NCBI RefSeq assembly: GCF_009931435.1
Contig: NZ_CP043414.1
From: Escherichia coli
GTDB taxonomy: Bacteria > Pseudomonadota > Gammaproteobacteria > Enterobacterales > Enterobacteriaceae
Direction: 5' to 3' (one strand)
DNA length: 64,000 nt
The position numbers were made by a program, and so were the translations under genes. Below, piece after piece: positions 21,965 to 61,005 of the stretch (position 1 is its first letter; the number at the start of each line of letters is the position of its first letter). The notes under the pieces are model-generated. The model was not told the DNA's origin. It saw only the letters and a program-made list of their open reading frames with translations, and did no database searches.

Positions 21965-22349
21965 CATTCTCCAGCGTCGCACTACACCAACCGCCACTAT
22001 CCCAGACCAGATCAAACGTTAGCGGTTCATCGTCGTGGTGCAGCATTATCTCAAGGCTGATCGCCAGCGTGTGGCTGTACGCTTCTTTCAAATTGACCTG
22101 CAACGCCGCAATCCGAGGCTCATGAAATAACAGTGCAGAACGTAGTTGACGGCAATACCAGCTCTGGAGATGTTTGTCGCTCTGGTTATGCACTTGCCAC
22201 TCAGGCATACCTGAAACAAGTAATGAAGGTAATGCCGAATGAGGAGAATTAAAAAGAGTGAGGAGATCGCTGCATACCGATTTACGCAGTGATAACGTTT
22301 TATTGCCTGAAATTTCAGGTGAAACAGCCTGAAGTGATTGGCGCATCAT
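21957..22349 (-). CDS. iraD: anti-adaptor protein IraD (130 aa)
   Basis: ORF convergent with hypT, 3' ends overlapping by 8 nt; start taken at second ATG cluster (MMRQSL). Confidence 0.75.
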
Positions 22350-23020
22350 TTTGCGCACTCCTGACGTTTAGCAACATATGTGGCTTGCCCTGAATACCGG
22401 GCACCACTGTATTGATGCTCATTTTCCATAGCCATTCCCTTTTGTTCATTACATCCATGTCAGTCTGAGACAGGCCTGAATCCTGTCAGCAAAGTATAAA
22501 ACCTTACTTGCCTATGAATATCTACTGACTTTTCAGGAAAAAAGTCATGATTTGATAAAAATCATCAAACTCAAAAAAAAACTGCTAGTATATTCTGAAT
22601 ATTCCGAATAGTTACGTAGATGAAAATACTTGTCACCGCCGCTACTTAATCCCGGCGGGACATTATTTATTTTCGTATAATCAACCATGTATTACTTGAA
22701 ACAATTAGTTTGTAAATAATATAAATTGATAACATATCAAATACATCAAAAACACCATTCACAGGCATTATTAATATAGACATCAATATAACAACATCAA
22801 ATTCCAATTAGTAATAAGATATGCTTTTTAATTGCATGCAAATAATTTTAAATGAGCGTTTTTTGATACTTTAGAGTGTTTCCCACCCTTTCATATGACC
22901 GTGTAGAGTTGATATCACTACAACAGAAACATGCATGTCATTTGTTTACTTCTCTTTTTACTACAGAAAAATTTATCTATTTTTCTAAGCATCAGTGAAA
23001 TACTCATAAAGGTAATTAAT

Positions 23021-23842
23021 ATGTCTATGCCAATAAGCAATGCCGCTAACAACAAAATTTTTACAGATAATCATTTCGCTCATCATCCAAATGCCGATAA
23101 AGAATTAGCAGACAGTATGCCCTCGCATCTTAACTCGGAAAACATCTATGTCAGACCTCTTGTTCGTGGAAATAACCATAACTATGATGGGGGAAGTGTT
23201 GTCGAAATTAGACAGCTTGAAATTGGTAAACAAGGGTATTGGCCATTCAATTACGTAACAGCCGCATGTAAAGAATCCGATGGTATTTCAATCACAGGAA
23301 ACATACGCTGTGGTACCTGGAAGGCCAGCTCAGTATTAGACGGAATATACGGTGGAGTATGTAAAAAGGCGCATGTTTCCGCAGCGTTAGAAGCTGGTCT
23401 ACGGTTTAACCTAACTATGGATTCTAAAATTCCAAACACGATACATGAAATAACCCTAGGCCCTGGTTGCAATGTTCCAGGCTATGCGGGAACCACGATA
23501 GGATACCTGGCAACACTCCCCCTTGAAAAGGTTGAAAATTGGCAAGATACAACACTGCCAAGAATTGATATCTATATTGATCAGATAATGACTGTGTCAG
23601 GGGTAGCAAATTCTTCCGGATTCGCCCTTGCTGCATTACTTAATGCTAATATTGGAATGGGAAATGACCCAATAATTGGTATAGAAGCCTATCCTGGTAC
23701 CGCTGAGATCCACGCTAAGATTGGATATAAAGTTATCCCCGGGGATGAAAATGCACATGTCAAACGTATGACTCTGCAACCGTCATCTCTCCCAGAACTG
23801 TTTGAATTAAAAAATGGTGAATGGAATTATATTGGTAAATAA
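23021..23842 (+). CDS. yjiC: hypothetical protein YjiC
   Basis: AT-rich ORF; ATG 23021 with AAAGG RBS preferred over upstream ATG 22931. Confidence 0.7.
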   Translation: MSMPISNAANNKIFTDNHFAHHPNADKELADSMPSHLNSENIYVRPLVRGNNHNYDGGSVVEIRQLEIGKQGYWPFNYVTAACKESDGISITGNIRCGTWKASSVLDGIYGGVCKKAHVSAALEAGLRFNLTMDSKIPNTIHEITLGPGCNVPGYAGTTIGYLATLPLEKVENWQDTTLPRIDIYIDQIMTVSGVANSSGFALAALLNANIGMGNDPIIGIEAYPGTAEIHAKIGYKVIPGDENAHVKRMTLQPSSLPELFELKNGEWNYIGK

Positions 23843-23982
23843 CCACGGGGAAGAATGAGTACTAACATTCAGGTTATACAGATATTTAAACAATACCCTG
23901 CAATTTACAAAGTAATACTCATTGCAACTTCTTAATTTAAGAAAGCGCAAGGAACGTTTACCCTTGCGCTTATCATAATAAG

Positions 23983-24756
23983 TCAGGCGTCGACTTTATC
24001 CAGCGGCCATGAATCAAACAGATAGCCGTCAAAATAAATATCGTCAACGTTCGAGAATTCCAGCAGACGTTGTTTAACGTTTTCCAGATGCTGCCACATT
24101 GCCAGCTTCGCCGCTCGGGCGTCTTTTTTGATTAACGCGGCGAGGATCTGTTTGTGATCGCCCAACCACTCTTTGCGATACAGGCTGTCATCCAGATGGC
24201 TGTGCAATTGGATCCACATTGGATTGTTTTCCCGCCACTGCCAGGACTGACGGAATAACTCCACCAGCATGCTGTTATGCGTTGCTTCGGCAATGGCGAG
24301 ATGGAACTGCATATCACCGCTTTCGCTGCTACCCGGCGCGCTGGAAGCCAGTTCACGCTCTTCCAGTTGCAATGCCTGACGCATTTTGACGATATCTTCG
24401 CGGGTAGCCTGCAGGGCGGCAAATTCCGCGATGTTACTTTCCAGTAACTGACGCGCCTGTAACAGCTCAAAAGGACCCGCATCATTGCAAACGTTGGCAT
24501 CCGGACCGTCTGTGTTGTGGCTGTCTGAGCTATCAAGAACATAAATACCGGCACCCCGGCGCACTTCCACCAGCCCTTTGATCTCCAGCATGATCAGCGC
24601 TTCACGTACCACCGTCCGCGTGACATCAAGCATTTCTGCAATTTCACGCTCCGGCGGCAGCCGTTCGCCAGGATTGTACGGCGTCTTTATGATCAGATCG
24701 CGGATCATCGCCCCGACTTCCTGGTAAGGTCTTTGCGCAGAAGTGGCAGATTTCAT
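23983..24756 (-). CDS. uxuR: GntR/FadR-family repressor of hexuronate utilisation
   Basis: 257-aa ORF with N-terminal GntR HTH and FadR C-domain. Confidence 0.9.
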   Translation of the reverse strand: MKSATSAQRPYQEVGAMIRDLIIKTPYNPGERLPPEREIAEMLDVTRTVVREALIMLEIKGLVEVRRGAGIYVLDSSDSHNTDGPDANVCNDAGPFELLQARQLLESNIAEFAALQATREDIVKMRQALQLEERELASSAPGSSESGDMQFHLAIAEATHNSMLVELFRQSWQWRENNPMWIQLHSHLDDSLYRKEWLGDHKQILAALIKKDARAAKLAMWQHLENVKQRLLEFSNVDDIYFDGYLFDSWPLDKVDA

Positions 24757-42672: not shown

Positions 42673-43430
42673 GTGCGGCACTATAATGGTTTTCACAACA
42701 AGGAGCCATTTTCTTATACCACTTTCAGAGACCATCCGCTTATGCCACCGCCCTCTACGCAACTGTTTGCAGAGCACCTTCCCACCGAGTGGATACAGCA
42801 CCTCCTGACGCTTTCTGCTCATGCGACTATTTGTCGTCTTAACCTGAGCGCGGATGGCGAAGCGGGGATTAGCCTGCTGGCCCGCAGCGCTGTCACCCAG
42901 GAGCGCCAGCGCGTGGGGGCCCCCTGGTGGAATGGCTCTTCCGCCAGACCGCACAGACATGGGGCGCGGAACGTTACCTGAAGGATGACTGGCACGGCCT
43001 GCAACTTTTTGCCATTGATGGCGCACAGTTCAGGACACCTATGAACCTGAGTTGCGTGAATATTATGGCTCTGCCAACACATCCACTGAGCGGCAGAGCG
43101 CCTACCCGGTCATGCGTCTGGTGGCGTTAATGAATCTGGGAATCACATTCTGCTGAATGCCATGACCGCGGCCTACCGGCGGAGCGATACAGCGTGAGGC
43201 AACTAAAGCGGCGTCAGAAATCAGCTTTAAGTTCGCATTCCAGTTTATCGTGACAGAAATGATAGTGCAGGGAAATACGGCGTCACCAGGAACCATCCCG
43301 AAACGGCTGGAGCATCTGCGGGGTGCTCTGGAAGCGGTGTTCCCACGACTATCAAGGCCGAGGGCTGTTAAGGTATCAAAAACCCGTTATCCGGTGAAAC
43401 ACAGTGCTGCCCCGCTTAAGTGACGGCATT
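42673..43430 (+). pseudogene. IS4-family transposase remnant, frameshifted and internally deleted (N-terminal and C-terminal parts only)
   Basis: Broken frames carrying segments that resemble, as recalled, N- and C-terminal parts of IS4 InsG (FRQTAQTWG...LQLFAIDGAQFRTP; PVMRLVALMNL; ASPGTIPKRLEHL...FPRLSRPRAVK); no intact DDE core. Confidence 0.6.
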
Positions 43431-43593
43431 GTGTTTCTGACTGGCCTTAACTTTCCCTGAATCTCTGACGATCCTCACCATTGATATTTTCTTCATTCCT
43501 CACCAGAGAAATAAAAAATCACTATACTCATCAAAATATGATGATCACCTTTATTCAGGTGATCACCTTACTATTTTATACGGAAAATAAATC

Positions 43594-44244
43594 ATGAATA
43601 TCCGTCAATCATTACATGACCGAATCTATGCAGAATACCCTCAACAGGCTAAAGATATATTACTGTATTTCCCCACTTATGAAATTATGCCATCGACCAT
43701 AAAAATGGTTATGATTAATGAGGTGGTAGCTATAACACCGCAAGAAGATTTTTATACACCAGAGTCTGGTTATTTTACGACTGTCGCCCGACAGTTAGCG
43801 CTGGCTGGATTATCGGCAAGTAGTGGCGAAGTCTTACTCAACCATGGTATCTACCTGACCTCCGCACTGAAACTACCTAAAACACAGATCACAGCCACAC
43901 CCGCGGAGATCATTCTCTGGTCACCTATTGTAGAATGGGAGCTCGAACTCTTTGCCAATATAAAAGTTATTTTCGTTGGCGGCGATATCGCGCGAAAATG
44001 CCTTAACATCATCGCGAAAAAGCAAACACGTAAACATGCCATCCCTTCAACTCCGACGTACAAACTGATGAATAGCGAATTAGTCTGGAAAGGAATAAGC
44101 ATACTTCCTGGATATATTCTTACCGGAAAAAACCTGCTCATTGAAAAGTCAAAAATCGAAATGAATGTCGAGCAATTAAGAAAAGGAATTGCGATTTATC
44201 GCAATAGTAACAGTAACCATACGAATAATTCAGTTCATGAATAA
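43594..44244 (+). CDS. hypothetical protein (216 aa), AT-rich orphan gene
   Basis: Clean ORF in an AT-rich stretch, convergent with the helicase operon; no family recognised. Confidence 0.5.
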   Translation: MNIRQSLHDRIYAEYPQQAKDILLYFPTYEIMPSTIKMVMINEVVAITPQEDFYTPESGYFTTVARQLALAGLSASSGEVLLNHGIYLTSALKLPKTQITATPAEIILWSPIVEWELELFANIKVIFVGGDIARKCLNIIAKKQTRKHAIPSTPTYKLMNSELVWKGISILPGYILTGKNLLIEKSKIEMNVEQLRKGIAIYRNSNSNHTNNSVHE

Positions 44245-44757
44245 GAGATGAATCATTAATAACAAGAAATCACTGACAAACCACCTGTAAAAGGTCAATC
44301 ATTTTAGTTCAATTTCCTTTGTCATGATTATATTTTTATCGTCCTGACGATACTATTAACAATTACAATATTTATACCCTCCCCTGAACAAACAGAAAAG
44401 AACTCATACATTCGTTTATAATTCTGGTAATCCTGGCATCATACGTTTAAAATTTAAGGTGTTTGTTTTATAATCATGGTTCCAAAGACTATTGGTCACC
44501 AGAAAATGCCAGCCTTTTCGTGCCAGCTATATTTGTCCAGTGTGTTACCCCATCCAAAAATCATCCACATCCTGATGTTATGTTAGATATAGAGAAAACA
44601 GGTTGTACTGTGCAATATGCTAACCGCATAAGCGAATATAATTTCTAAGCTGATATTGTCTGGCTGTTGGGAGCTAAACAATATAAATATCGCCAGTTGC
44701 CAGAACGGTTATATAGACCAGGAGCGTTTCGGCTCCTGGTCTGTTTCGGACATATTA

Positions 44758-46872
44758 TTAATCAGCCACTAATAGCGGACTAGGGATACCAGATGATGAA
44801 ACAAACAGCCCTTTTACGGCACGGGTTGCAGCCACATGCAGTAACGCGCGCTCATTAAATAATGCATCACGCTGTTCAACGGGATCATCGGATGCTAATG
44901 CTTTTATTTCCGGCACAACGCCTTCGTTAATCCCCACCAGGAACACATACTGGAACTCAAGCCCTTTAATACGGTGCATCGTTGCAACTCGCACGCCTGG
45001 GCGTGCATCGCTGTCACCGCTATCATTGCCTAAATTAAATGTCTCAATTCCGGCGTCATTGAGTGCTGATGCGTAGCGGTCACAAGCATGTTTAGTACGC
45101 GCAGTAATGCAGATATCCTGAGAACGAACCTGATTCGCCAGCAATGCCTGAATTTGCTTGACGAGTGTTGCAGCCTCTTCTTTGAAATCTGCCGCATGCG
45201 TAATCATGGGCTTTTCCCCGTGCAGTAATGACAAATAATCATTACTGGTATCCGCTTCGCCATCGAGGTTATCAACCTTCACACCAGTTAACAGCCCAAC
45301 AGCAAATTGACGCGTCTCTTCTGTGGTCCGATAGTTAATCTTCAATTTTTTACTGCGACGACCACGGACGTTAATACCACACTGACCAAGAACGACCTTA
45401 TTGCGATAAATACGCTGATGCCCATCCCCGACAATAAACAGATCGTTGGGCGACTCGGGAACCAGGCTGCGAATAAGAGTAAATGCCGGGGCACCGATAT
45501 CTTGAGCTTCATCGACGACAATACTGCTATAAGGTAGTTGGACCTGCTTTTCTTTAAACAGAACAATAGCCTCATGCATGGCATCGCCCATTTCGCGCAG
45601 TTTGGCACGCGCCATTTGTGCTCTGAATTCTTCGAAAACTGGCCAGATTTTCGCCCGTTGAATACGGGATAACGCTGTACCACGTCCAACCCGGCTGACT
45701 TTGAGGTATTCCTCCCGGGTGTAAACCGCATTTGGCTGGACAACGCGTTGCCACTCTTCAGCATAGAAATTGTCAGGTAGCCCCAGTTCGGCAGGTGCCT
45801 GCTGCAAGGCATAGTTCCAGCATTTACGTCGCCCTTCATCGCTGTCGTATACCACGCGGAAATCATAACCGTGGCGTTTTAGTTGGTCGCTCATCCAGGC
45901 ATCAATGTTAACGACGTCAATACGCGCCATCTCTTCTCGCGTACACAACCGCTGGAGATTAGCGCGAATATCTGCCGCCAGGTTACGCGTAAAGGTCGTG
46001 AAAAGTACCTTCTTACCGGGTTTATCTACCAGACGCTGAGATAACCACCGCGCACGGTGCATTGCAACAACCGTTTTCCCTGTACCTGCACCGCCCAGTA
46101 CTCGTACCGGACCATTAGCGGGCGACTCCACCAGTTTTCGCTGGCTCGGGTGCAGAAATACACGCCATTTTTCTAAAGGCGCATTAAGCATCTGCAATAG
46201 TTCCTGTTCATTTTCAACGACATGGAAGCGACGTTTACTTCGTTCAATCGCCTCCATAAAGTCGTTGGTATCAACAGGCTCATCACGATGATCGTTAAAC
46301 TCTTCCAGCACTTCCTGGTAATCCAGCCCTTCTGCCAGCCAGTGCAGAGGTTCCCAGGCTTCTGCTGGCATTATGCTTTCAAGTTGATTAAGCCCGGCTT
46401 CATCGGTAAGCGCCATCACCTGATCAATAAAGACAGGCGGCACACCCAGGGCCAGAATCTGTTCCGCGCTGTAAGCTGCGAAGAGTTTCGGTTTATCAAC
46501 CACCGTTTCCGCTGCCGGTTTGATATAGCTAATATCAATGACCTGAATCGCGCCAGTAACCGGGTGAATCGAACAATCATGCCGCCGCGCCCAGTCATAT
46601 GCTTCGTCGTGTTTATCCACCCACATCAGCATATACAGAGCACCCTGTTCAGGTTTCAGAACAATGCCGCGATAAGTTTGATCGATTCGCACCGAATGGA
46701 CATTTTTACTGCGCGCATCGTGGATCTTTTCATAGTTAAGTCCATTACTGGTCGGGTCCTGACGGAATTTGGAGATGAATTCCTGCACCTTTTTTTGCTG
46801 TGCTTTTGGGATCCGCGCGAATGCGCCCAGAAAACCATCAGAAAGTGCCACCTTGGGCGTTTGCACCGTCAT
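44758..46872 (-). CDS. UvrD/Rep-like superfamily 1 helicase (704 aa), last gene of defence-like operon
   Basis: Q-motif and Walker A (LHPSQRKLV...GGAGTGKT), VVDEAQD, GDGHQRIY, YRTTEE, MHRIKGLEF; ATG overlaps upstream stop (ATGA). Confidence 0.8.
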   Translation of the reverse strand: MTVQTPKVALSDGFLGAFARIPKAQQKKVQEFISKFRQDPTSNGLNYEKIHDARSKNVHSVRIDQTYRGIVLKPEQGALYMLMWVDKHDEAYDWARRHDCSIHPVTGAIQVIDISYIKPAAETVVDKPKLFAAYSAEQILALGVPPVFIDQVMALTDEAGLNQLESIMPAEAWEPLHWLAEGLDYQEVLEEFNDHRDEPVDTNDFMEAIERSKRRFHVVENEQELLQMLNAPLEKWRVFLHPSQRKLVESPANGPVRVLGGAGTGKTVVAMHRARWLSQRLVDKPGKKVLFTTFTRNLAADIRANLQRLCTREEMARIDVVNIDAWMSDQLKRHGYDFRVVYDSDEGRRKCWNYALQQAPAELGLPDNFYAEEWQRVVQPNAVYTREEYLKVSRVGRGTALSRIQRAKIWPVFEEFRAQMARAKLREMGDAMHEAIVLFKEKQVQLPYSSIVVDEAQDIGAPAFTLIRSLVPESPNDLFIVGDGHQRIYRNKVVLGQCGINVRGRRSKKLKINYRTTEETRQFAVGLLTGVKVDNLDGEADTSNDYLSLLHGEKPMITHAADFKEEAATLVKQIQALLANQVRSQDICITARTKHACDRYASALNDAGIETFNLGNDSGDSDARPGVRVATMHRIKGLEFQYVFLVGINEGVVPEIKALASDDPVEQRDALFNERALLHVAATRAVKGLFVSSSGIPSPLLVAD

Positions 46873-49800
46873 TTGTCACCTCCGGACAGATGTTGCAATG
46901 TATTTTCGTCAATTGGCCCGAATGCAACGTGCCAACCCCTGGTTGTGAATAATGGAATAAATTCTTGATTATCAATAATCAATGCCCATTTTTGTGATGG
47001 CCAGGCGAGATCGGCTTCCGCAATAATTTCACCTTCATCATTTTGCAATTCGTAGCCGAGAGTCGGCGCAGAGAGAGAATGAGACTGAAGCAACGCGATC
47101 TCTTCAGCGCTTAATAAGCCAAACTCAATAATCTCAGCCCAACTTTCATCAGTCTCTGGTACTGCCTCTGGCGTTGCCGTAACTTTAACGTCAACGCTTT
47201 CCTGCGGTAAATGTACGGCTTTACGGCTGGTAAAGGTCATATCCGGCAGGAACTGTAACAGGTTTACCAGTCGCCAGAAGCCATTGAGTCCCGCTTCATA
47301 ACCGTCATCCTGCGTATAGCGATCGTCAAAACAGATATGCAAACGCAGCCAGCTGCGCATTTGTGCGACACTGGTCGTCGGTTTAATGGCTTGTTGTGGC
47401 AACACCGAAGCCAGCTCAATAAATTGCTGCGATGAGTTACAGCTATCGAGTAAACCACCAAAGACAAACGGTTCGTCTGGCAAAAGCTCTGCTAGCCGCC
47501 AGTCTGGCGCGTTTTCCTGCATTTCATAGGCATACTTTTGTTTCGTTCCCGCGTCCTGTGACTTCTTCACATCCAACCACACCCAGGCATGTGCAGCAGC
47601 CATTTTCTGCCATAACTGCGTTCTTCCTCCCGGCTCGGCGAGATAATCCAGCAGCAGTGCAAAACTGTTGCGTTCCCGGAACGACGCTTCAAGGGCCGCA
47701 AAGTTGGTATCGTGAAACAGGTTATAAAACTTAGGCTGTTTCATATCCGGGTTATGCCCAAGCCCCAGGACATCCTGAACATGTTTAAGCCCAGGCTCTT
47801 TGAGATCGGCCCACGTGACTGTCCACACCCAGAAATTACCGCTATCCCGAATCGCCTGGCGTTTTTGCACATCCTCTGCGACGCTATTTTTGTGAAACGC
47901 AAAGCCATCAAGGAAAATAGCTACCGGTTTAATGGCATCAGACTGCATAAGCGGATATAGCACGTAATCCGGGCGACAAGGGATCCCCACAGCCTCTTTA
48001 GCGCCTAAATCCACCTGAGCTTTAAGATGCCAGCTCATCATCGGTTCGCTGCGGGTGTTAATAATCCACCCAGCGCCCTGATGCGCGTAACTGCGACTGA
48101 CAATCAGGTTTTTATTTTCTTGCAGGCAGCTAATAAACCGTTTTTCCAGCTCACTGCCCATCATGGCTTCGAGGGAAATGTTTTTGATGGAATCAATTAC
48201 CCGTATCGAATCTCTTGCCTGCAAAATTTTCGCCAGCAAGAGACGCGCCTGATCGCGGGAGACATACTTCATGCGCCCACGGTCACGGTAAGCGTAAACG
48301 CAACGATAACAACCATCTTTATGCGTATCATGGTTGCAACTGCATTCCACTATCGCCTGATAGGCCAGTTCAAGTAATTTCAGCAAATTGTCGGGAGTGC
48401 GCATCAGCTCTTTAAGAGAACCAGTCCCCCCCGGGACGGTATCGTAAATCACCAGATACTGCCGCCAGGATTCGCCTTCATTTTCCGGCTCGCGGTACAC
48501 AACGCCTTTCAGGTGATCGACATTCCCCTTGAAGTAATGTTTAAGGCCGAGCTGGATCGCCGCCCCAAGAGAAGCCTCCACGACACGGTCATTACTGTAA
48601 CTGCTTACCGGGAGCAGAATTCGCAACGCTTCTGACTCCAGCTGGCGATAGAGATAGAGATAATCTTCGAACTTCGCCTTTTCCGGTTCCGTGCGATATT
48701 TGCAGCTCAAATCATGACGTGGTTCATGATCGCGAGGACGCTGTACCATGCCGCACCCCAGGCAAACTTTAAACCCGGTTCGCTTCTTCGCTTCTCCGGC
48801 AATCATCAACTCATTGGCATCATCCGCCATTTTGCCGAAGTTGATATCCCGCAGGGTGACTTTGCTTAAAAATTCAAAACCAAACGGAACTTCGCCTTCC
48901 TCAATCGCGTATGCCGCCGATACATCTTCTTTTTCGAAACTAACCAATAGCTGACGCTGGAAGAAAGCAGGTTCACGGCTGTCGCTCTCGTCGCTGATCT
49001 GGCTATCACGTGCGCTGGCGCGGGCATACACCTGGCGAAGTTTCAGCAGCGTGGTTTTTTGTCCGGCGTCGGCCCACCCCGGTGTGCCACATTTCGGGCA
49101 ATATTTATGCTGGTCGCCCGTCTGGTCGATATTTTCGCTGTAGTTACAGTGGCTACAGATACGCCAGTTCTCCGGCTCAGAGACCTTCAGGTCTATCTGC
49201 TCAATTTCAACTTTATGCCCACCGGCATAGAAATTATTCAGCGGAGCCAGCTCAGCCAGCGCCGTTGATGCCGGGCGTTCATATTCGAAAGTGGTGTTTT
49301 GATATTCACGCGCTTCCCCGCCTTCTTTACGCCGCCAGAGCACAGAACGTAACGTAATACCGGCTTCCGGGAAGGCGTAGTTAGGCAGCAGACCTTCATC
49401 CGTGAGGAAATTCAGCGTCTGCTTATTGTTGATTTGATTGACTAGCGCCATCAGCGCCTGCCGTTCTGAAGTTAACTCGCGCATATCGCTGTCAAAGTTT
49501 TGATCGCGCGGCGCGTTCTCCAGCTTATCGATACTGCGCTTGAGTTTATCGATGCGTGAACGCAGAGATTTGCGATCTTCCACCAGCAGTTTTAACGCCT
49601 CTTCGATACGCTGCACCAGAGAGCGTTGTCCTGGCGCGCCCTGAAGATAAGACAACAACTGTTGGCGAGTTTCTGCGGCAAGATCGGGGAAGATCGCCGT
49701 AAATTGTGCAGCAATCTCCGCATGATGCTGTTCGATATATCTCAGTAAGTTATACGGAAAACCCGATTTACGCCCGAACTCCAGCTCATCCAGCATCTGT

Positions 49801-52800
49801 TTGACGTTTTTACAGATAGCGGATTCTGGTACACCGGTTTTCACCCAGTTATCCATACAAAAAGCTGCCAGCTGGCGTTCGAGAATAGCCGTTGCATTGA
49901 GGAAGACGCCAGGAGCCTGCACCTGGCCCTGCATCATCTCCAGCGGTTCTTCAAAGAAAAACTGATCGTGCGGGTTCCCTTCTGCCACGGTAATGTTTAA
50001 CGCGTTACCATCTTTACGACCGGCGCGACCAATACGCTGCAAGTAGTTGGCCTGAGCAGGTGGGACAGAACAGAGTAAAACGGTGGAAAGATCCCCAACG
50101 TCAATACCCATCTCCAGCGTCGGTGTTGCCGACAACAGGTTGATATTCCACGGTTGGTTGCCACGGTAGAACGATTTTTCGGTGGCTTCGCGATCTTCAC
50201 GGCTAAGCAGCCCCGTGTGTTCTGCGCCCTGCACGCGCGCGATGTCCATGTTCTCCCAACGCCAGGTCGCCATATTGTCGACTTCCTGGTAACGACCTTC
50301 ACAACGTAAAGAGAGACAAGGCGCATTACGCCACTGCCAGCCTTGATCGGCCGGAGCCCGGACAACCTCACGGCAACATGAGCAATTAAGCTGAACGACG
50401 TCACGGCTCACCACCAGCGCCGAAGGCACCAGTCCCCAGGCTTCACGCCCTTTGGTGTCAAAATCTTTTACTACTCCGGCTATTTTCAACGCCGTAAACA
50501 GGCGTCGTAACACTGTTTCCGCAACGCTACTGATAAACAGATTATTGCCGTTACTCAGCGTGCGATTGATCCAATGCTGATACCAACTGGGGTTAGACTT
50601 CGCGCCAATCAGGCGATGGAAACCATTAATTTTTTCAAACGACGCATAAGCCGGTTTACGCGTTTTCGGACCGATAGAAGGCATATAGCGCGATGTACGC
50701 TCTTTTTGCGTCATCATAAAGGTCGTGCCATCACGGCGATAACTTTCGAACGCCGGATGCATAACGGCCCCGGCCTGGCGTTGATACCAGATAACCCCCA
50801 GCGCCAGGTGCGCTACCTGCTCGACGCTCACACCGGACATCTCATCACCCAGCTCTTCACAAAGCTGTTGATGCAGGGCGGTAATTGCCGGATTAAAGCG
50901 TTCTTTATCCACTCCGGCAACGGCATAACCGGTGGCTTCCAGCGTACGTCCGATACGCGCGCGCAGGGTAAATTCGCTGTACACCTCCCAGTCGAGGCGC
51001 AGGGAAACCAGCTCCGGCAGATCGGAGTTCTCCGCCAGTTTGCCTTCATTTTTCAGTGTCTGATAATCATTCAGCCACTGCATATTTGGTGCGATGAAGT
51101 TCGCTGCAAAATGAGCATCGTCCGGTGAACGTTCACGCGTTTGTTGGCAAACACGCGCCGCGAACGCATCCAGCGGTAATGTCTCTTTTTCGCCAAGAAC
51201 ACTGGCGATTTGCCCACGAATCATCAGCGGCCAGGTTCGGGCAGTAAAAAAGCTGGCACGATGCGCGGCGTCTTGTACCGAGTCAGAAAACGTAATCAGC
51301 TTTTTATGTTCGTTGAACTGGCTGCCATAAAGCTGGTGAATCATCACCGCCGACAAACTGGCAGCCCGTGACCCCAGAATCGAAATCCCCTGTTTGCTGT
51401 TGCAGTACGGGCATTCATTAGCAAACTCCAGCTCGTCCTTACGCTCTTTGAGCATATCCGGGATCAGTACCTGCAACAGTTCCGTATGACCGCAATGTCC
51501 ACACTGGACGCTGGACTGTCGGTTCAGTTTCAGACAGGTAGGGCACAGTTTCTGGTGTGCGCCACTGACCGCTTTTTCGTTGTTATCCGGGAAAGCAAGG
51601 ACGATGGAGCGCCCTTTTTCAAAGAACTGGCGATAAATGCCGTCGAGGTCTGTTTCCAGCTGAACGCTTTGCCCATGACGCAGGCTGGCCCAGCCAGTTG
51701 CGTGGCAGTCACGGCAGTGGATAACCGGCAAATAGTGTTCGCGGTCTTCCACCGCCACATCATCGGCAAACACCAGTCTCGGCGTTTTCGCCACGCTGGC
51801 GACCAGACGACGCATCTCACGAAGCCACAACTGGGAGCGCAGTTGCACAAACGGCAGCACCGGGCGCGCTTTCTTCGCCTGGAGACGTTTTTGCCGATCG
51901 TGTTCCATTTCCGGTACTTCGAGACGTGCCTGTGCGATCAGCGCCAGAATGCTTTGCAGCACGCGTCGGGCATGGTCGGCGCTTTCTGCCAGCATAACCT
52001 GGAGATTTTCCAGACACTCTCGTTCAGAGAGGATCCCGCCTTGCAGATCATGGAGTAAGACATGCATCACGCTGTGGCGGCGTAACAGTGACCCCAGCGC
52101 AATACGCTTTTCACGCCCGTCGTCGCTCTCCAGATCGTCCGGGAGTTGCAAGTCGCTGTCGGGGAACCACAAAGGGATTTGCCCGTTAAGATACGCTACC
52201 GGGGTAGCGTAACTCTGCGGGTCCAGGGCCGAAGCGACCTCCTGCCCCGGATACTGACTGTACGCAATGGCGTAATCCTGCAAGTACTCCGCTGCCGTGT
52301 AGCGATCTTCGCGAATAACGGCGTCATCGGTAAACGGCTGGTCAAAGATTGTTTTTGCGTAATCGAGCAGTTGCCCCAGTTCGTCGCCGACGGTCGCTGA
52401 TGTCCCGACACAGGCGAATCGTTGGTTATCCACACCTATGTGATGCTTCAGACGTCGCACCAGACAGGCCAGATCCGACCCTTGCGCGCCATCAAACGTA
52501 TGCAATTCATCCACGACCAGGTAGCGCAATGAACCGGGCTGGTTGTAACGCCAGAGCGGCTGATCGCCAGGGCGCATCAGCAGGTAGTCGAGCATTTTGT
52601 AGTTGGTCAACAGGATGTCCGGCGGGCTTTCGCGCAGCGTGTGCTTGCAGGTAATGACCTTTTCTGCCGACATTTTTTTGCTGGGTTCGATTTCGCTGTC
52701 GCCGACAAACAGGCCGACGGTCACCTTGCCATGCAGTTGTGGATCGCTGGCGATGGTTTTGGCGAAACGGCTGGCCTGATCGGTTGCCAGGGCGTTCATC

Positions 52801-53210
52801 GGGTAGATGATAATCGCTTTAACCCCGGCTTGTGACGCGCCCGCGCAGTGGTTGAGCAGCGGGAACATAAAACATTCTGTTTTACCGGAGCCGGTACCGG
52901 TAGCGACCAGTGTCGGCTGTGGCGCGTCGCTTCCCAGACGCTGAAATGCCCGGGCCTGATGCGCGTGCGGCGGGAACGGCAGCGTCAGATTAGGGAAAAA
53001 ATTCAGCGGTAAGTCACTTTTACGAAACGGCAACTGGGCGGAAAGGTATGGTCCTTTCAGCAGCGTTTCCGGCTGGGCCAGAAATTGCTCCAGCATTGAG
53101 ACATTATCGTTATTCTCACCGTTAAACAGCGGGCTGTTTAGCGGGAACGCCGCCCGTAAAAAGGCGGCAACGCTGTCGGCGACCTGCCGACTGACAACGG
53201 ACGGCAACAT
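46869..53210 (-). CDS. giant DExH-box helicase with Zn-ribbons, DUF1998 (MrfA-like) domain and C-terminal Vsr/DUF559-like nuclease fold (2113 aa)
   Basis: Motif I GTGSGKT (~aa 105), motif II DELH (~234), TSAT (~270), motif VI QRIGRAGR (~1057); DUF1998-type IYDTVPGGTGS...CSCNHDTHKDGCYRC (~1590-1640); RPDYV...VAIFLDGFAFH...D..KRQAIRDSGNFWVWTVTWADL (~1745-1805). Confidence 0.8.
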   Translation of the reverse strand: MLPSVVSRQVADSVAAFLRAAFPLNSPLFNGENNDNVSMLEQFLAQPETLLKGPYLSAQLPFRKSDLPLNFFPNLTLPFPPHAHQARAFQRLGSDAPQPTLVATGTGSGKTECFMFPLLNHCAGASQAGVKAIIIYPMNALATDQASRFAKTIASDPQLHGKVTVGLFVGDSEIEPSKKMSAEKVITCKHTLRESPPDILLTNYKMLDYLLMRPGDQPLWRYNQPGSLRYLVVDELHTFDGAQGSDLACLVRRLKHHIGVDNQRFACVGTSATVGDELGQLLDYAKTIFDQPFTDDAVIREDRYTAAEYLQDYAIAYSQYPGQEVASALDPQSYATPVAYLNGQIPLWFPDSDLQLPDDLESDDGREKRIALGSLLRRHSVMHVLLHDLQGGILSERECLENLQVMLAESADHARRVLQSILALIAQARLEVPEMEHDRQKRLQAKKARPVLPFVQLRSQLWLREMRRLVASVAKTPRLVFADDVAVEDREHYLPVIHCRDCHATGWASLRHGQSVQLETDLDGIYRQFFEKGRSIVLAFPDNNEKAVSGAHQKLCPTCLKLNRQSSVQCGHCGHTELLQVLIPDMLKERKDELEFANECPYCNSKQGISILGSRAASLSAVMIHQLYGSQFNEHKKLITFSDSVQDAAHRASFFTARTWPLMIRGQIASVLGEKETLPLDAFAARVCQQTRERSPDDAHFAANFIAPNMQWLNDYQTLKNEGKLAENSDLPELVSLRLDWEVYSEFTLRARIGRTLEATGYAVAGVDKERFNPAITALHQQLCEELGDEMSGVSVEQVAHLALGVIWYQRQAGAVMHPAFESYRRDGTTFMMTQKERTSRYMPSIGPKTRKPAYASFEKINGFHRLIGAKSNPSWYQHWINRTLSNGNNLFISSVAETVLRRLFTALKIAGVVKDFDTKGREAWGLVPSALVVSRDVVQLNCSCCREVVRAPADQGWQWRNAPCLSLRCEGRYQEVDNMATWRWENMDIARVQGAEHTGLLSREDREATEKSFYRGNQPWNINLLSATPTLEMGIDVGDLSTVLLCSVPPAQANYLQRIGRAGRKDGNALNITVAEGNPHDQFFFEEPLEMMQGQVQAPGVFLNATAILERQLAAFCMDNWVKTGVPESAICKNVKQMLDELEFGRKSGFPYNLLRYIEQHHAEIAAQFTAIFPDLAAETRQQLLSYLQGAPGQRSLVQRIEEALKLLVEDRKSLRSRIDKLKRSIDKLENAPRDQNFDSDMRELTSERQALMALVNQINNKQTLNFLTDEGLLPNYAFPEAGITLRSVLWRRKEGGEAREYQNTTFEYERPASTALAELAPLNNFYAGGHKVEIEQIDLKVSEPENWRICSHCNYSENIDQTGDQHKYCPKCGTPGWADAGQKTTLLKLRQVYARASARDSQISDESDSREPAFFQRQLLVSFEKEDVSAAYAIEEGEVPFGFEFLSKVTLRDINFGKMADDANELMIAGEAKKRTGFKVCLGCGMVQRPRDHEPRHDLSCKYRTEPEKAKFEDYLYLYRQLESEALRILLPVSSYSNDRVVEASLGAAIQLGLKHYFKGNVDHLKGVVYREPENEGESWRQYLVIYDTVPGGTGSLKELMRTPDNLLKLLELAYQAIVECSCNHDTHKDGCYRCVYAYRDRGRMKYVSRDQARLLLAKILQARDSIRVIDSIKNISLEAMMGSELEKRFISCLQENKNLIVSRSYAHQGAGWIINTRSEPMMSWHLKAQVDLGAKEAVGIPCRPDYVLYPLMQSDAIKPVAIFLDGFAFHKNSVAEDVQKRQAIRDSGNFWVWTVTWADLKEPGLKHVQDVLGLGHNPDMKQPKFYNLFHDTNFAALEASFRERNSFALLLDYLAEPGGRTQLWQKMAAAHAWVWLDVKKSQDAGTKQKYAYEMQENAPDWRLAELLPDEPFVFGGLLDSCNSSQQFIELASVLPQQAIKPTTSVAQMRSWLRLHICFDDRYTQDDGYEAGLNGFWRLVNLLQFLPDMTFTSRKAVHLPQESVDVKVTATPEAVPETDESWAEIIEFGLLSAEEIALLQSHSLSAPTLGYELQNDEGEIIAEADLAWPSQKWALIIDNQEFIPLFTTRGWHVAFGPIDENTLQHLSGGDK

Positions 53211-56200
53211 CAGGCGCTCTCCTTATCTTGTGCAAAGAACGCCCAGGCCACTTTGTAGTCGTCTTCGCGATCCGGCTTGATAAACGGTGCCTGCCAGGTG
53301 ACGGTACGGCGCTCGCCTTCGTCGCTGCGGGTATAGTCATCAAAGGTGACGCTGACGGTACCGGTTTGCAAATGTTTGACATCATCCCAACCGATGGCTT
53401 GATCGGTGCAGTCACCGCCGGTCCACTCCGGGCTGTCGACGTTAAAGACAAAGCCGTTTTTCAGGTCAGCTTTACGCGCGGTGCGAGGCAAGCCAACGCC
53501 CACCAACCCTTTGCTTGGGGTAAAGATGATGCGGCCGTTTTGGTCGTACCAGGTGTCCGCTTCGTACTGACGCATCACCGGGAACTGTACACGGTAAATG
53601 GTAAGCAGCTCTTCGAGGGTTAACCCCAGCGCCTGTGCCACCAGAACGTCGATTTCCACCAGCGCCTGACGACGACTGTAGTCGGAGCGTAAGGCACAGT
53701 TACGCTGCCACTCTGGGGTCAGATTGGCGAAGAAATCTTGTGGGAGCTGCGGGAGATCGCGGCTCCAGCGTTGGGTATTGAAGTCTGGGGTGTAGCAGGA
53801 TTGCCAAAGGCCAGCATATACATCATTTACAGAATTTAATGATAATACTAAGCAGTATAATAATGCCTTTTGTCTCGGATTGAATAATACGTATGAGAAA
53901 CCATCAAGCATCTGATGTAAGTTTGCCTTGCCAGTAGATTTACAAATAAAATCAAAAGGTAAAGAAAAACACATACCTGAATGTTCGAGTAACTGATTCT
54001 GTGAGCTATAGCAGTAAGAACGTACTGCGTTCATGTGACTTATTTCTGGCGGATAAATAGCACTAATTAGTGTACGTTCCCCCGATTGAGCCAACATGGC
54101 TCTGATAGCTAAGCGATAATAATCTGTTACCTTCTTCGGTTCATCTTCAGCCAGTTCAGTCCATGTAACGCATGGAGTACGTTTGGCATACTCCTGTGCA
54201 TCACAGGCTGGAATATAGTTAGTGCGCGGCAAATAGTCGTCGGGCAGAGTTAGCAAGTCTAGGTTATCGTATGCTTTATTCGTGTCACAAACCGCTCTAG
54301 GCGTATTGTAGAAAGGATTGCCAACAAAAAAATGAGGGCCAGACAAAACCCATTGTGATGCTTCTTCCGGGAACTGTGTATGTCGCTCAATTGTACCATC
54401 GCTTTGCTGATTAGTTTCATGCCACATTTCTAGAGAATAATATTGCCCCTGCAAATCACCTAATCGCCTAGGTTGTTTCGCAAACTTTTCAAGTACTGTA
54501 ACTAATTGTGTAGCATGCAACGCAGGAAGACGGGCTTCCTGGGCAGGAGTTCCGACAACATCATAAAGACGCGCAAAAAGACCCAACTGTTTTAAATTTA
54601 TAGGCACGACTCGATCGAAATGTCCCTGGAAATTCCATTTAACTTTTACTTTGCCATCGATTTCAGTTTCTTCTTTTATCCCCGGGACAATGCCTTCCCC
54701 TTTATGTTCAAAACACGCGTCAATAGTTTGAGGAATAAATAAATTTGCTATATTTGAGAATGCCACTATCTGAGAATAGGGGCCATATACATTGATGCTA
54801 AATCTAGTGTGATTATCTACTTCAGCAAATATTTTAACTTCATTGGCAAATTGAAAATGCGCCCTCAACCTCGGGTACACTGCCGCACGCAACTGCCCAC
54901 CTTTCGGGTCATCATAAATCCCTTCCGGGTGCAGGAAGCCTGCCACGCCTTTCTCTGCCCCTAAGCGCCATGCCTGCGGCAGGAAGCATTTATACAAGTT
55001 GGTCTGCACCCCGCGCAGTACCGGGTAGTTTTGCTGCGCATTGAGGAAGTTTTGCATCCCTTCACAGCCTTCATACTCGCTGCGCCAGGCCGCTTCCAGC
55101 GCTGGGATCTGGTTAAAGGTATCAACACGCAACGTTGCCAGCTTCGATGCACTCAGCTTACGCAGCACAAATTCCGGCTCGTAATCACCCAGCACGCCCG
55201 CTTCCTGCCATTCCACTTTTAGCCACGGCGGGTTTCCGAGCATCAGGTCAAAACCGCCGCGCTCGGCAAACAAGTCGCAGAACTCCAGATCCCAGTGGAA
55301 GAAACGGTGCTGCTTTCTCAGGGCATCGACAATCGCCAGACGCGGCAAATGGCGGAACAGCACATCGGTTTTCAGACGACCAGCAACGGAAAACAGCGAA
55401 GACTCTTCTCGCAGCAGGCCTTCTTCGGCAAACAGATCGCCAGTGGTGTGATCCGCAACTTCAGTGACTTTTTCCGTGATTACAATCCCGTCGAGCAGGG
55501 TTTCAATCTCAAACAACCAGGTACCGCGATCCGGTAGCTCATCAGCTTTGTCGATCGGCCAGAACCACAGCGCGCACCAGTAGTCCATCACCCAACGCAG
55601 CTTCTGGTAGGCGCTGTTATCTTCAAGACGACCGCTAAAGGTTTCATCTTTACTGCTCAGCGAAGAACGTGTCTGCTCGCTGTTTTCTGCCGGCCACACC
55701 GGGTAGCTGTCGGCGGTTTTCAGACGTTCTGCTTTAAGTTGCTGGCGATAGGTGTTCCACAGTGCTTCCACCTTTTCGCTGATACGCTGCACATCAGCAA
55801 TCTCATGCCCGGCAAAGCTTTTAATAAACTCTTTGCGCCAGCTGTCCAGCGCTTTGAAGTCATCCGGATAACGCTGCTTAACAGTTTTATCGCTGTAATT
55901 AGCCATACCGCCGTCGGGCAGCAGGAAGTGGAAAATCTGCGTCTCTTCACGCGGCGTGTTCATCGCCAGTTCGACCGGCTCGCTGTTAAGCCAGCTCGGA
56001 TCTTTGACTTTTTTGTAGGTCAGTTCGCTCTTGTTGAACACCTGACGGCGCGCGCCCACCAGCGAGTTACCGCAGTGCAGCTGGTAACCAAACCACGGTA
56101 CAAAGGCATCGCCACTGATGGCGTTCAGCCACAGTGACACTTCCGCCAGCTCCACCGCCACCGGGTTTAAGTCCACGCCGAAAACGTTGTTGTCGGCAAT

Positions 56201-61005: not shown

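What the first reader, a model, noticed from the sequence alone, without database searches (positions are those of the whole stretch)
44758..61005. Tightly coupled four-gene operon (SNF2 helicase, giant N6-adenine MTase, DExH/DUF1998/nuclease-like giant, UvrD-like helicase): candidate atypical DISARM/Druantia-like defence system
Four very large minus-strand genes are separated by 2-nt, 1-nt and 4-nt junctions (TAA-tc-ATG at 58142-58149, TGATG at 53208-53212, ATGA at 46869-46872), implying one translationally coupled unit of about 16 kb. The domain set seen in the sequence (SNF2 ATPase, PglX/Eco57I-like adenine methylase, DExH helicase with DUF1998) is the hallmark of DISARM class 1. The architecture is not canonical, though: the helicase and DUF1998 are fused in one 2113-aa protein that carries a Vsr/DUF559-like fold, no PLD (HxK...D) protein is present anywhere in the window, and an SF1 UvrD-like helicase closes the operon. 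DUF1998 giant helicases also define Druantia DruE. The locus sits at the variable island junction beyond nanS, a typical defence-island position.
Basis: partly seen in the sequence, partly recalled or inferred. Interest (0 to 1): 0.9.

Follow-up and report, generated by a model that had tools for sequence, protein, structure and literature searches.

The report
Known ARMADA type II phage-defence operon
The four coupled giant genes are real and form an anti-phage system, but it was already described and tested in 2025 as ARMADA type II (armABCD), next to Druantia III in a common E. coli defence island.

Summary
Four minus-strand genes of 952, 1644, 2113 and 704 aa are joined by a 2-nt spacer, a 1-nt overlap and a 4-nt overlap. 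The operon is armABCD, ARMADA type II, named and tested in two September 2025 preprints (PMC12458937; 10.1101/2025.09.22.677730).

The window's proteins match those of strain EDL933: ArmA 100%, ArmC 99.3%, ArmD 99.7%, ArmB 94.7%. All eight residues mutated in the published work sit at the same positions in the expected motifs. I confirmed three family features independently:
- gene order;
- a Vsr-like nuclease fold after the DUF1998/MZB domain of ArmC;
- a RelE-like fold at the ArmD N-terminus.

The "upstream DUF1998 gene" is the 3' part of druE (Druantia III), cut by the window edge. About 520 of 5426 complete E. coli genomes carry the locus.

One modest addition: ArmB variation is confined to two blocks (aa ~1100-1300 and ~1330-1470) that reassort independently. 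This suggests exchangeable specificity cassettes. The molecular mechanism of ARMADA remains unsolved.

The parts
58147..61005 (-). armA: SNF2/RapA-like (BrxHII/DrmD-like) ATPase, 952 aa. Walker A K136 (GLGKT), Walker B D236 (DEAH).
   Evidence: ORF. Pfam SNF2-rel_dom and Helicase_C. PADLOC DrmD E=1e-99 and BrxHII E=9e-60. PDB RapA E=3e-29. Motifs. 100% identical to EDL933 ArmA.
53210..58144 (-). armB: PglX/DrmMI-like N6-adenine DNA methyltransferase, 1644 aa. SAM motif around G605. NPPW at residues 971-974 (nt 55223-55234).
   Evidence: ORF. Motifs. Pfam Eco57I, MmeI_Mtase and N6_Mtase, all weak. PADLOC REase_MTase_IIG E=4.5e-287 and DrmMI E=3e-57. 94.7% identical to EDL933 ArmB.
54245..54847 (-). 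armB variable region 1 (ArmB aa ~1100-1300), a candidate specificity cassette.
   Evidence: Variability profiles and pairwise identities. 13 types at 90% identity among 121 variants.
53735..54157 (-). armB variable region 2 (ArmB aa ~1330-1470), a candidate specificity cassette. The window carries the O157:H7 type.
   Evidence: DNA alignment breaks at 53818-54111. This allele occurs in 314 of 5426 genomes. 15 types among 121 variants, assorting independently of VR1.
46869..53210 (-). armC: YprA-family DExH helicase-nuclease, 2113 aa. Walker A K110 (GSGKT), Walker B D234 (DELH). Four CxxC motifs at residues 499-603 between the RecA lobes.
   Evidence: ORF. Pfam DEAD, Helicase_C and MZB. PADLOC DruE3 E=4e-104. 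PDB 9tu7 E=5e-48 and YprA 6znp E=3.5e-20. Motifs. 99.3% identical to WP_000937974.1, the published type II representative.
48297..48566 (-). ArmC MZB/DUF1998 zinc-binding domain (aa 1549-1638).
47793..48170 (-). ArmC Vsr-type PD-(D/E)xK nuclease domain (aa ~1681-1806). Invariant D1748, D1768, G1769, H1773, D1780, R1784, D1802.
46980..47147 (-). ArmC terminal module (aa ~2022-2077), homologous to the C-terminal region of ZorE.
   Evidence: BLASTP 40% identity over 57 aa, E=6e-9, against ZorE of the syntenic island. PADLOC ZorE2 E=5.7e-9 and NCBIfam ZorE E=2e-4.
44758..46872 (-). [quoted passage not shown] Walker A K266 (GTGKT), Walker B D454 (DEAQ).
   Evidence: ORF. Pfam UvrD-helicase and UvrD_C. 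PADLOC GajB E=3e-36. PDB PcrA/UvrD. Motifs. 99.7% identical to EDL933 ArmD.
46534..46854 (-). ArmD N-terminal RelE/YoeB/YafQ-fold domain (aa ~7-113). Invariant E48, R62, R68, H88.
61006..61228 (-). druE-armA intergenic region. A 9-bp stem-loop (61195-61221) follows the druE stop, then T-runs. A promoter-like TTGTCA-16-CATGAT lies at 61124-61097.
   Evidence: Sequence and consensus scan. The published system was active from its native promoters on a BAC.
44716..44741 (-). Perfect 10-bp stem-loop (GACCAGGAGC-GTTTCG-GCTCCTGGTC) 17 nt downstream of the armD stop. Probable 3' end of the operon; no canonical T-run.
   Evidence: Read directly from the sequence.
61229..64000 (-). Neighbour, not part of ARMADA: the 3' 924 codons of druE (Druantia type III), truncated by the window edge.
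   Evidence: PADLOC DruE3 E=6e-216, matching profile positions 1218-2051 of 2055. No in-frame stop up to base 64000. The syntenic genome has a 2104-aa gene followed by druH and zorA2B2E.

Best explanation
The operon is armABCD, an ARMADA type II anti-phage system. [quoted passage not shown]

Shown elsewhere for near-identical copies: it protects directly, without killing the cell, against many siphoviruses, T5-like phages, Vequintavirus and podoviruses, but not against hypermodified T-even phages. All four genes are needed, as are the ATPase motifs of ArmA, ArmC and ArmD and the NPPW motif of ArmB. It synergises with Druantia III.

My inferred mechanism is a BREX/DISARM-style epigenetic, DNA-targeting system. 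ArmB is both the self-marking adenine methylase and the sequence-specificity subunit. Its two exchangeable variable blocks would set the motif. Because deletion of armB, or the N971A mutant, loses defence rather than causing autoimmunity, ArmB would also be needed for target recognition, as PglX is in BREX. ArmA, a RapA-like SNF2 motor, would translocate on or remodel DNA. ArmC, a YprA-type 3'-5' helicase with MZB, would load on exposed ssDNA or ends of unmodified phage DNA and cut with its Vsr-type nuclease domain. ArmD, a UvrD-like motor with a RelE-fold domain, would be an accessory, possibly a second, RNA-directed or regulatory arm.
For: Identity with the published system:
- Gene order and coupling.
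- ArmA 100%, ArmC 99.3%, ArmD 99.7% and ArmB 94.7% identical to EDL933 z5899-z5902.
- The EDL933 ArmC is WP_000937974.1, the published ARMADA type II representative.
- All 8 published functional residues are at the same positions in the expected motifs.

Domain features confirmed here:
- ArmC MZB plus a Vsr-like fold with invariant acidic and His residues.
- ArmA RapA-like.

Genomic context: the same island as published, fim-nan / armDCBA / druEH / zorABE. It occurs in 520 of 5426 complete E. coli genomes, against 426 of 3792 reported.

The module is autonomous. The same four genes occur without druE in Klebsiella-type contigs, and the system is active alone on a BAC.

Published phenotypes: direct, non-abortive defence; all four genes needed; viable single-gene deletion mutants, including armB, that lose protection against Bas18; T-even phages escape.

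Specificity role of ArmB: variation is confined to two blocks C-terminal to the catalytic domain. There are 13 x 15 types in 31 combinations, inside otherwise 97-100% conserved proteins.
Against: - No methylation motif, ArmB-dependent self-protection, nuclease activity or complex has been reported. The Bell et al. preprint does not mention methylation at all.
- The EHEC preprint expects ArmC to act without sequence specificity.
- ArmB G605A, in the SAM motif, lost activity only partly. That sits awkwardly with a strict need for methyl transfer.
- The variable blocks could instead reflect escape from phage inhibitors that bind ArmB.
- I could not model ArmB, and it has no sequence relative in the PDB, so calling VR1/VR2 target-recognition domains is inference.
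Confidence: 0.95

Rival explanations
1. [quoted passage not shown]
Against: - The DISARM_DrmD score of 349.7 bits is far below the curated cut-off of 610.
- The helicase and DUF1998 are fused in one protein, not split as DrmA/DrmB.
- The operon has no PLD (DrmC) gene.
- The helicase is much closer to DruE models (E=4e-104) than to DrmA (E=4e-14).
- There is an extra UvrD/RelE gene.
- The published phylogeny places it in a separate clade.
Confidence: 0.01
2. It is a Druantia variant (a DruE-centred system with a methylase, as in type II), or one six-gene unit together with druHE.
For: ArmC's top HMMs are DruE3 and DruE1. Its nearest solved structure is a 2108-aa DEAD/DEAH helicase, 9tu7. It lies directly downstream of druHE on the same strand. 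Published work reports synergy with Druantia III.
Against: - The DruE HMM matches cover only the helicase parts of ArmC.
- The operon has no DruH, DruA-D, DruF or DruG.
- A hairpin and a promoter-like site separate druE from armA.
- armABCD alone protects from a BAC.
- The four genes occur without druE elsewhere.
- ArmC carries Vsr-type rather than PLD-like nuclease domains.
Confidence: 0.02
3. ArmB is a stand-alone type IIG restriction-modification enzyme, and the three helicases are unrelated neighbours.
For: The PADLOC REase_MTase_IIG model matches nearly full length at E=4.5e-287. The two variable blocks resemble type IIG/type I specificity domains.
Against: - The genes are translationally coupled.
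- The four-gene order is conserved across genera.
- Deleting any of the four genes abolishes defence.
- No nuclease domain was detected in ArmB by Pfam.
- armB deletion is tolerated.
Confidence: 0.02

Closest known systems
ARMADA type II (armABCD) of E. coli NCTC 12900, EDL933 and ATCC 8739 (Bell et al. 2025, PMC12458937; EHEC OI-172 preprint 10.1101/2025.09.22.677730)
   Same: Gene content, order and overlaps. Proteins 99.3-100% identical, except ArmB at 94.7%. All eight tested catalytic residues. [quoted passage not shown]
   Different: Only the armB allele differs. The window combines a non-O157 VR1 (91% to strain 24A16CRGN010) with the O157:H7 VR2 (99%). Over nt 53400-54600, no complete E. 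coli genome reaches 99% identity and only one exceeds 95%.
DISARM class 1 (DrmD, DrmMI, DrmA, DrmB, DrmC)
   Same: An SNF2 ATPase, a PglX-like adenine methylase, and a YprA-type helicase with DUF1998. Direct DNA-targeting defence.
   Different: The helicase and DUF1998 are fused. The nuclease is Vsr-type and fused, not a separate PLD protein. There is an extra UvrD/RelE protein. ArmC is phylogenetically nearer to DruE.
Druantia type III (DruH-DruE), encoded immediately upstream
   Same: A ~2100-aa YprA-family helicase with MZB and C-terminal nuclease domains. The phage range overlaps, and the two systems are co-transferred.
   Different: ARMADA has no DruH. It has a methylase, an SNF2 motor and a UvrD motor. 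Its nuclease domains are Vsr-type, not PLD-like.
BREX (PglX plus BrxHII)
   Same: A PglX-like methylase that is required for defence itself. A BrxHII/RapA-like SNF2 helicase. Variation concentrated in the specificity part of the methylase.
   Different: No BrxA, BrxB, BrxC, PglZ or BrxL. ARMADA has dedicated helicase-nuclease effectors.
Gabija GajB
   Same: [quoted passage not shown]
   Different: There is no GajA partner. ArmD carries an N-terminal RelE-fold domain.

Membership tests
ARMADA type II | Strict gene order: BrxHII/RapA-like SNF2 helicase, then PglX-like methyltransferase, then YprA-like helicase, then GajB-like UvrD helicase. | tested here: met
   ORFs and junctions. Family assignments.
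ARMADA type II | ArmC is a YprA-family helicase: DEAD/DExH core plus the DUF1998/MZB module. | tested here: met
ARMADA type II | A predicted active Vsr-type PD-(D/E)xK nuclease fused C-terminal to MZB in ArmC. | tested here: met
ARMADA type II | Additional inactivated EEP and Vsr domains at the ArmC C-terminus (often but not always present). | tested here: inconclusive
ARMADA type II | ArmD N-terminal RelE-like RNase-fold domain. | tested here: met
ARMADA type II | A BrxA-like helical insert after RecA1 and a Zn-binding beta-barrel with CxxC motifs in ArmC. | tested here: inconclusive
   Four CxxC motifs at residues 499, 556, 570 and 600 lie between the RecA lobes. The folds themselves were not modelled.
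ARMADA type II | Functional residues shown to be needed: ArmA K136/D236, ArmB G605/N971, ArmC K110/D234, ArmD K266/D454. | tested here: met
   All eight are present at identical positions in the proper motifs.
ARMADA type II | Anti-phage phenotype. | not testable with these tools
   Published for copies 99-100% identical in ArmA, ArmC and ArmD. Not tested for this armB allele.
DISARM class 1 | Separate DrmA (helicase) and DrmB (DUF1998) proteins. | tested here: not met
   A single 2113-aa ORF carries both.
DISARM class 1 | DrmC, a PLD-family nuclease gene. | tested here: not met
   The operon has no such gene, and no protein of the operon has a PLD Pfam hit.
DISARM class 1 | DrmD SNF2 helicase at equivalog level. 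| tested here: not met
   NCBIfam DISARM_DrmD scores 349.7 bits against a cut-off of 610.
Druantia type III | A DruH partner plus a full-length DruE match. | tested here: not met
   The operon has no DruH. The best DruE3 HMM stretch on ArmC covers only residues 79-280. The true DruE is the upstream gene.
Type IIG restriction-modification | A single polypeptide with nuclease, methyltransferase and TRD that acts alone. | tested here: inconclusive
   The PADLOC IIG model matches at E=4.5e-287, but no nuclease domain was found. Published work shows all four genes are needed.

The most novel reading that the evidence does not exclude
ArmB carries two independently exchangeable specificity cassettes, VR1 and VR2. 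On this reading ARMADA II is a motif-programmed epigenetic system, like type I R-M or BREX, whose target specificity is re-assorted by recombination between strains. The window would hold a rare recombinant allele, non-O157 VR1 plus O157 VR2, with a methylation and restriction motif different from the tested EDL933 and ATCC 8739 systems. This would contradict the published expectation that ARMADA acts without sequence specificity.
Probability: 0.4. Interest if true: 0.45.

Novelty: already known. Interest (0 to 1): 0.22.

Why it matters
It still matters as biology. ARMADA II is reported as the strongest contributor to phage resistance in EHEC O157:H7, which is relevant to phage therapy, and its mechanism is unknown. 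The two-cassette organisation of ArmB seen here gives a concrete, testable handle on self/non-self discrimination through methylome comparison and cassette swaps.

Tried and rejected
- Pfam on ArmC residues 1150-2113 found only MZB, with no DUF559/Vsr hit. The Vsr claim therefore needed a structure model.
- Pfam found nothing in ArmD residues 1-240.
- Sequence searches of the PDB with ArmB, both full length and catalytic core, found no relative.
- A word-indexed homologue search with the ArmC C-terminus returned only 8 hits because of the candidate cap. The exhaustive representative search replaced it.
- NCBIfam and PHROGs gave nothing for the 216-aa ORF.
- Two glycosylase-defence papers do not mention that ORF's accession or this island.
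- Rfam and tRNA scans of the region were empty.
- The promoter-like site count equals the shuffled expectation, so only sites in the intergenic gaps were considered.
- I considered and rejected canonical DISARM, Druantia and stand-alone type IIG R-M (see rivals).
- The 90% cluster that joins ArmA with a 2104-aa DruE is a database artefact; the two proteins share no similarity.

Full report
**Observation**

The four large minus-strand ORFs exist at the stated coordinates: 58147-61005 (952 aa), 53210-58144 (1644 aa), 46869-53210 (2113 aa) and 44758-46872 (704 aa). The junctions read on the coding strand are as follows:
- TAA-TC-ATG, a 2-nt spacer.
- TGATG, where stop and start share base 53210.
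- ATGA, a 4-nt overlap.

Each downstream start has a Shine-Dalgarno-like GGAGG-type sequence. This is a tightly coupled operon of 16.2 kb.

A 223-nt gap separates it from the upstream gene. That gap holds a 9-bp stem-loop right after the upstream stop, T-runs, and a promoter-like site. A perfect 10-bp stem-loop lies 17 nt after the last stop.

**Domain content**

| Protein | Evidence |
|---|---|
| 952 aa | Pfam SNF2-rel_dom and Helicase_C |
| 1644 aa | Weak Eco57I, MmeI_Mtase and N6_Mtase matches; SAM motif near residue 605; NPPW at 971, about 260 aa further on |
| 2113 aa | DEAD, Helicase_C, and MZB (=DUF1998) at residues 1549-1638 |
| 704 aa | UvrD-helicase and UvrD_C at residues 241-693 |

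PADLOC and NCBIfam name the proteins DrmD/BrxHII-like, type IIG/DrmMI-like, DruE-like and GajB-like. None reaches an equivalog cut-off; for example, DISARM_DrmD scores 349.7 bits against a cut-off of 610.

It has no in-frame stop up to the window end. It is therefore the 3' part of druE, cut by the window.

**Context**

A 20-kb query covering the locus matches at least 80% of its length in 520 of 5426 complete E. coli genomes. In an annotated syntenic genome the order is as follows:
- fim operon;
- nanC, nanM, nanS;
- a frameshifted transposase;
- a 216-aa "uracil-DNA glycosylase family protein";
- the four genes;
- a 2104-aa helicase (druE);
- an STY4851/ECs_5259 protein (druH);
- zorA2, zorB2, zorE.

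The rest of the window is ordinary core genome, yjiR to gntP.

**What it is**

A literature search found two preprints. Bell et al. [quoted passage not shown] Type II has a strict order:
- a BrxHII/RapA-like SNF2 helicase (ArmA);
- a PglX-like methyltransferase (ArmB);
- a YprA-like helicase with a C-terminal Vsr-type nuclease (ArmC);

They cloned the E. coli NCTC 12900 operon on a BAC and showed four things:
- protection against 13 of 80 phages;
- a direct, non-abortive phenotype;
- a requirement for all four genes;
- loss of defence in ArmA K136A/D236N, ArmC K110A/D234N, ArmD K266A and ArmB N971A, and partial loss in ArmD D454N and ArmB G605A.

The second preprint (10.1101/2025.09.22.677730) shows that armABCD (z5899-z5902) on O-island 172 of EDL933 is the dominant defence of that EHEC strain. 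[quoted passage not shown]

**Membership, tested here**
- Gene order is met.
- Identity to EDL933 is ArmA 100%, ArmC 99.3%, ArmD 99.7% and ArmB 94.7%. The EDL933 ArmC is WP_000937974.1, the type II representative used by Bell et al..
- All eight mutated residues are at the same positions in the expected motifs: GLGKT/DEAH, GSGKT/DELH, GTGKT/DEAQ, and G605/NPPW971.
- ArmA's nearest solved relatives are RapA and ArmD's are PcrA/UvrD.
- ArmC's nearest solved relatives are a 2108-aa DEAD/DEAH helicase (9tu7) and YprA.
- No ARMADA component appears to be solved, and ArmB has no PDB sequence relative.

**Unit boundaries**

The four-gene module is autonomous. In Klebsiella-type contigs it occurs with different neighbours on both sides, without druE and without the 216-aa gene. 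A 45%-identical relative lies in a P4-like integrative element. This agrees with the published BAC experiment.

**Mechanism**

The phenotype, gene requirements and motif requirements listed above are established, all from the preprints. Two further published observations bear on the mechanism: the armB deletion mutant grows normally uninfected yet loses protection against Bas18, and hypermodified T-even phages escape.

My inference is a BREX/DISARM-style DNA-targeting system. ArmB would both mark self and supply sequence recognition. ArmA would be a DNA translocase. ArmC would be the helicase-nuclease effector, acting through its Vsr-type domain. ArmD would be an accessory motor whose RelE-fold domain may add an RNA-directed or regulatory function. 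No methylation motif, nuclease activity or complex has been reported, and later Druantia preprints still treat ARMADA as uncharacterised.

**An addition: variation in ArmB**

The EHEC preprint notes only that island diversity lies mostly in armB. I localised it.
- Against other alleles the DNA alignment breaks at 53818-54111.
- Protein comparison of 11 alleles shows two variable blocks inside otherwise 93-100% identical sequence. VR1 covers aa ~1100-1300 and VR2 covers aa ~1330-1470.
- Among 121 full-length ArmB variants there are 13 VR1 types and 15 VR2 types at 90% identity, forming 31 combinations. Eight of the 13 VR1 types pair with more than one VR2 type.
- The window combines a VR1 like strain 24A16CRGN010 (91%) with the O157:H7 VR2 (99%; this VR2 is present in 314 genomes).
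- Over nt 53400-54600, only one complete genome exceeds 95% identity to the window.

Both blocks lie C-terminal to the catalytic motif. In gamma-class adenine methyltransferases such as MmeI and PglX the target-recognition domain sits there (general knowledge, not tested here). Independent reassortment resembles the TRD1/TRD2 shuffling of type I HsdS.

Two cautions apply. The 121 sequences are the top of a ranked list of cluster representatives, not an unbiased sample. Escape from phage inhibitors that bind ArmB is an alternative driver.

**Verdict**

Interest is low. What remains open is ARMADA's unsolved mechanism and the ArmB cassette pattern.

Noticed in passing
window 53735-54157 and 54245-54847 (armB): All ArmB variation among 121 variants falls in two blocks that reassort independently: 13 x 15 types, 31 combinations. 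The window's allele is a recombinant of a non-O157 VR1 and the O157:H7 VR2. Neither ARMADA preprint describes this.
   Followed up: yes
window 43594-44244 (+): A 216-aa ORF convergent with armD is a divergent uracil-DNA-glycosylase superfamily protein (Pfam UDG E=0.004; PDB 2d3y E=0.18; PGAP name 'uracil-DNA glycosylase family protein'). It sits next to armD in the E. coli loci examined but is absent from Klebsiella-type ARMADA contexts. Given Brig1-type defence glycosylases, it could be a fourth defence gene aimed at modified phages, which the three neighbouring systems do not stop. Untested.
   Followed up: partly
window 43540-43567: A near-perfect palindrome, GATGATCACCTTTATTCAGGTGATCACC, lies about 30 nt upstream of the 216-aa ORF's start. 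It looks like an operator or a bidirectional hairpin.
   Followed up: no
window 46980-47147 (ArmC aa ~2022-2077); L001 43473-44576 (zorE): The last domain of ArmC is 40% identical over 57 aa (E=6e-9) to the C-terminal region of ZorE, the Zorya II effector of the same island. This shared module is not mentioned in the papers checked. It could relate to the reported cross-system synergy.
   Followed up: partly
window 61229-64000 (-): The 3' 924 codons of druE (Druantia III) run off the window end. druH and zorA2B2E follow in syntenic genomes. Newer PGAP annotation calls DruE a 'motility-regulating DEAH-box RNA helicase'. A 2026 preprint found no motility or fliC effect on deleting druE in EDL933.
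   Followed up: partly
L009 10001-18613; L008 1-18625: A metagenome contig has an ArmC-like plus ArmD-like pair with no SNF2 or methylase gene in the 10 kb upstream. Another genome has an extra 1662-aa SACS/NOV_C gene between the methylase and the ArmC-like gene. These are variants of the 'strict' type II order.
   Followed up: no
window 42742-43423: A frameshifted IS4-family transposase remnant lies between nanS and the defence island, marking the island junction.
   Followed up: no
protein database cluster of ArmA: The 90%-identity cluster holding ArmA (952 aa) is headed by a 2104-aa DruE, although the two proteins share no detectable similarity. This is a clustering artefact to keep in mind when using cluster sizes.
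   Followed up: yes
window 7771-9861 and 22000-24000: Two low-GC stretches (0.36-0.39) lie in the core part of the window. One is a 696-aa pentapeptide-repeat protein gene. The other is the iraD / DUF2686 region. Both are unrelated to the finding.
   Followed up: no
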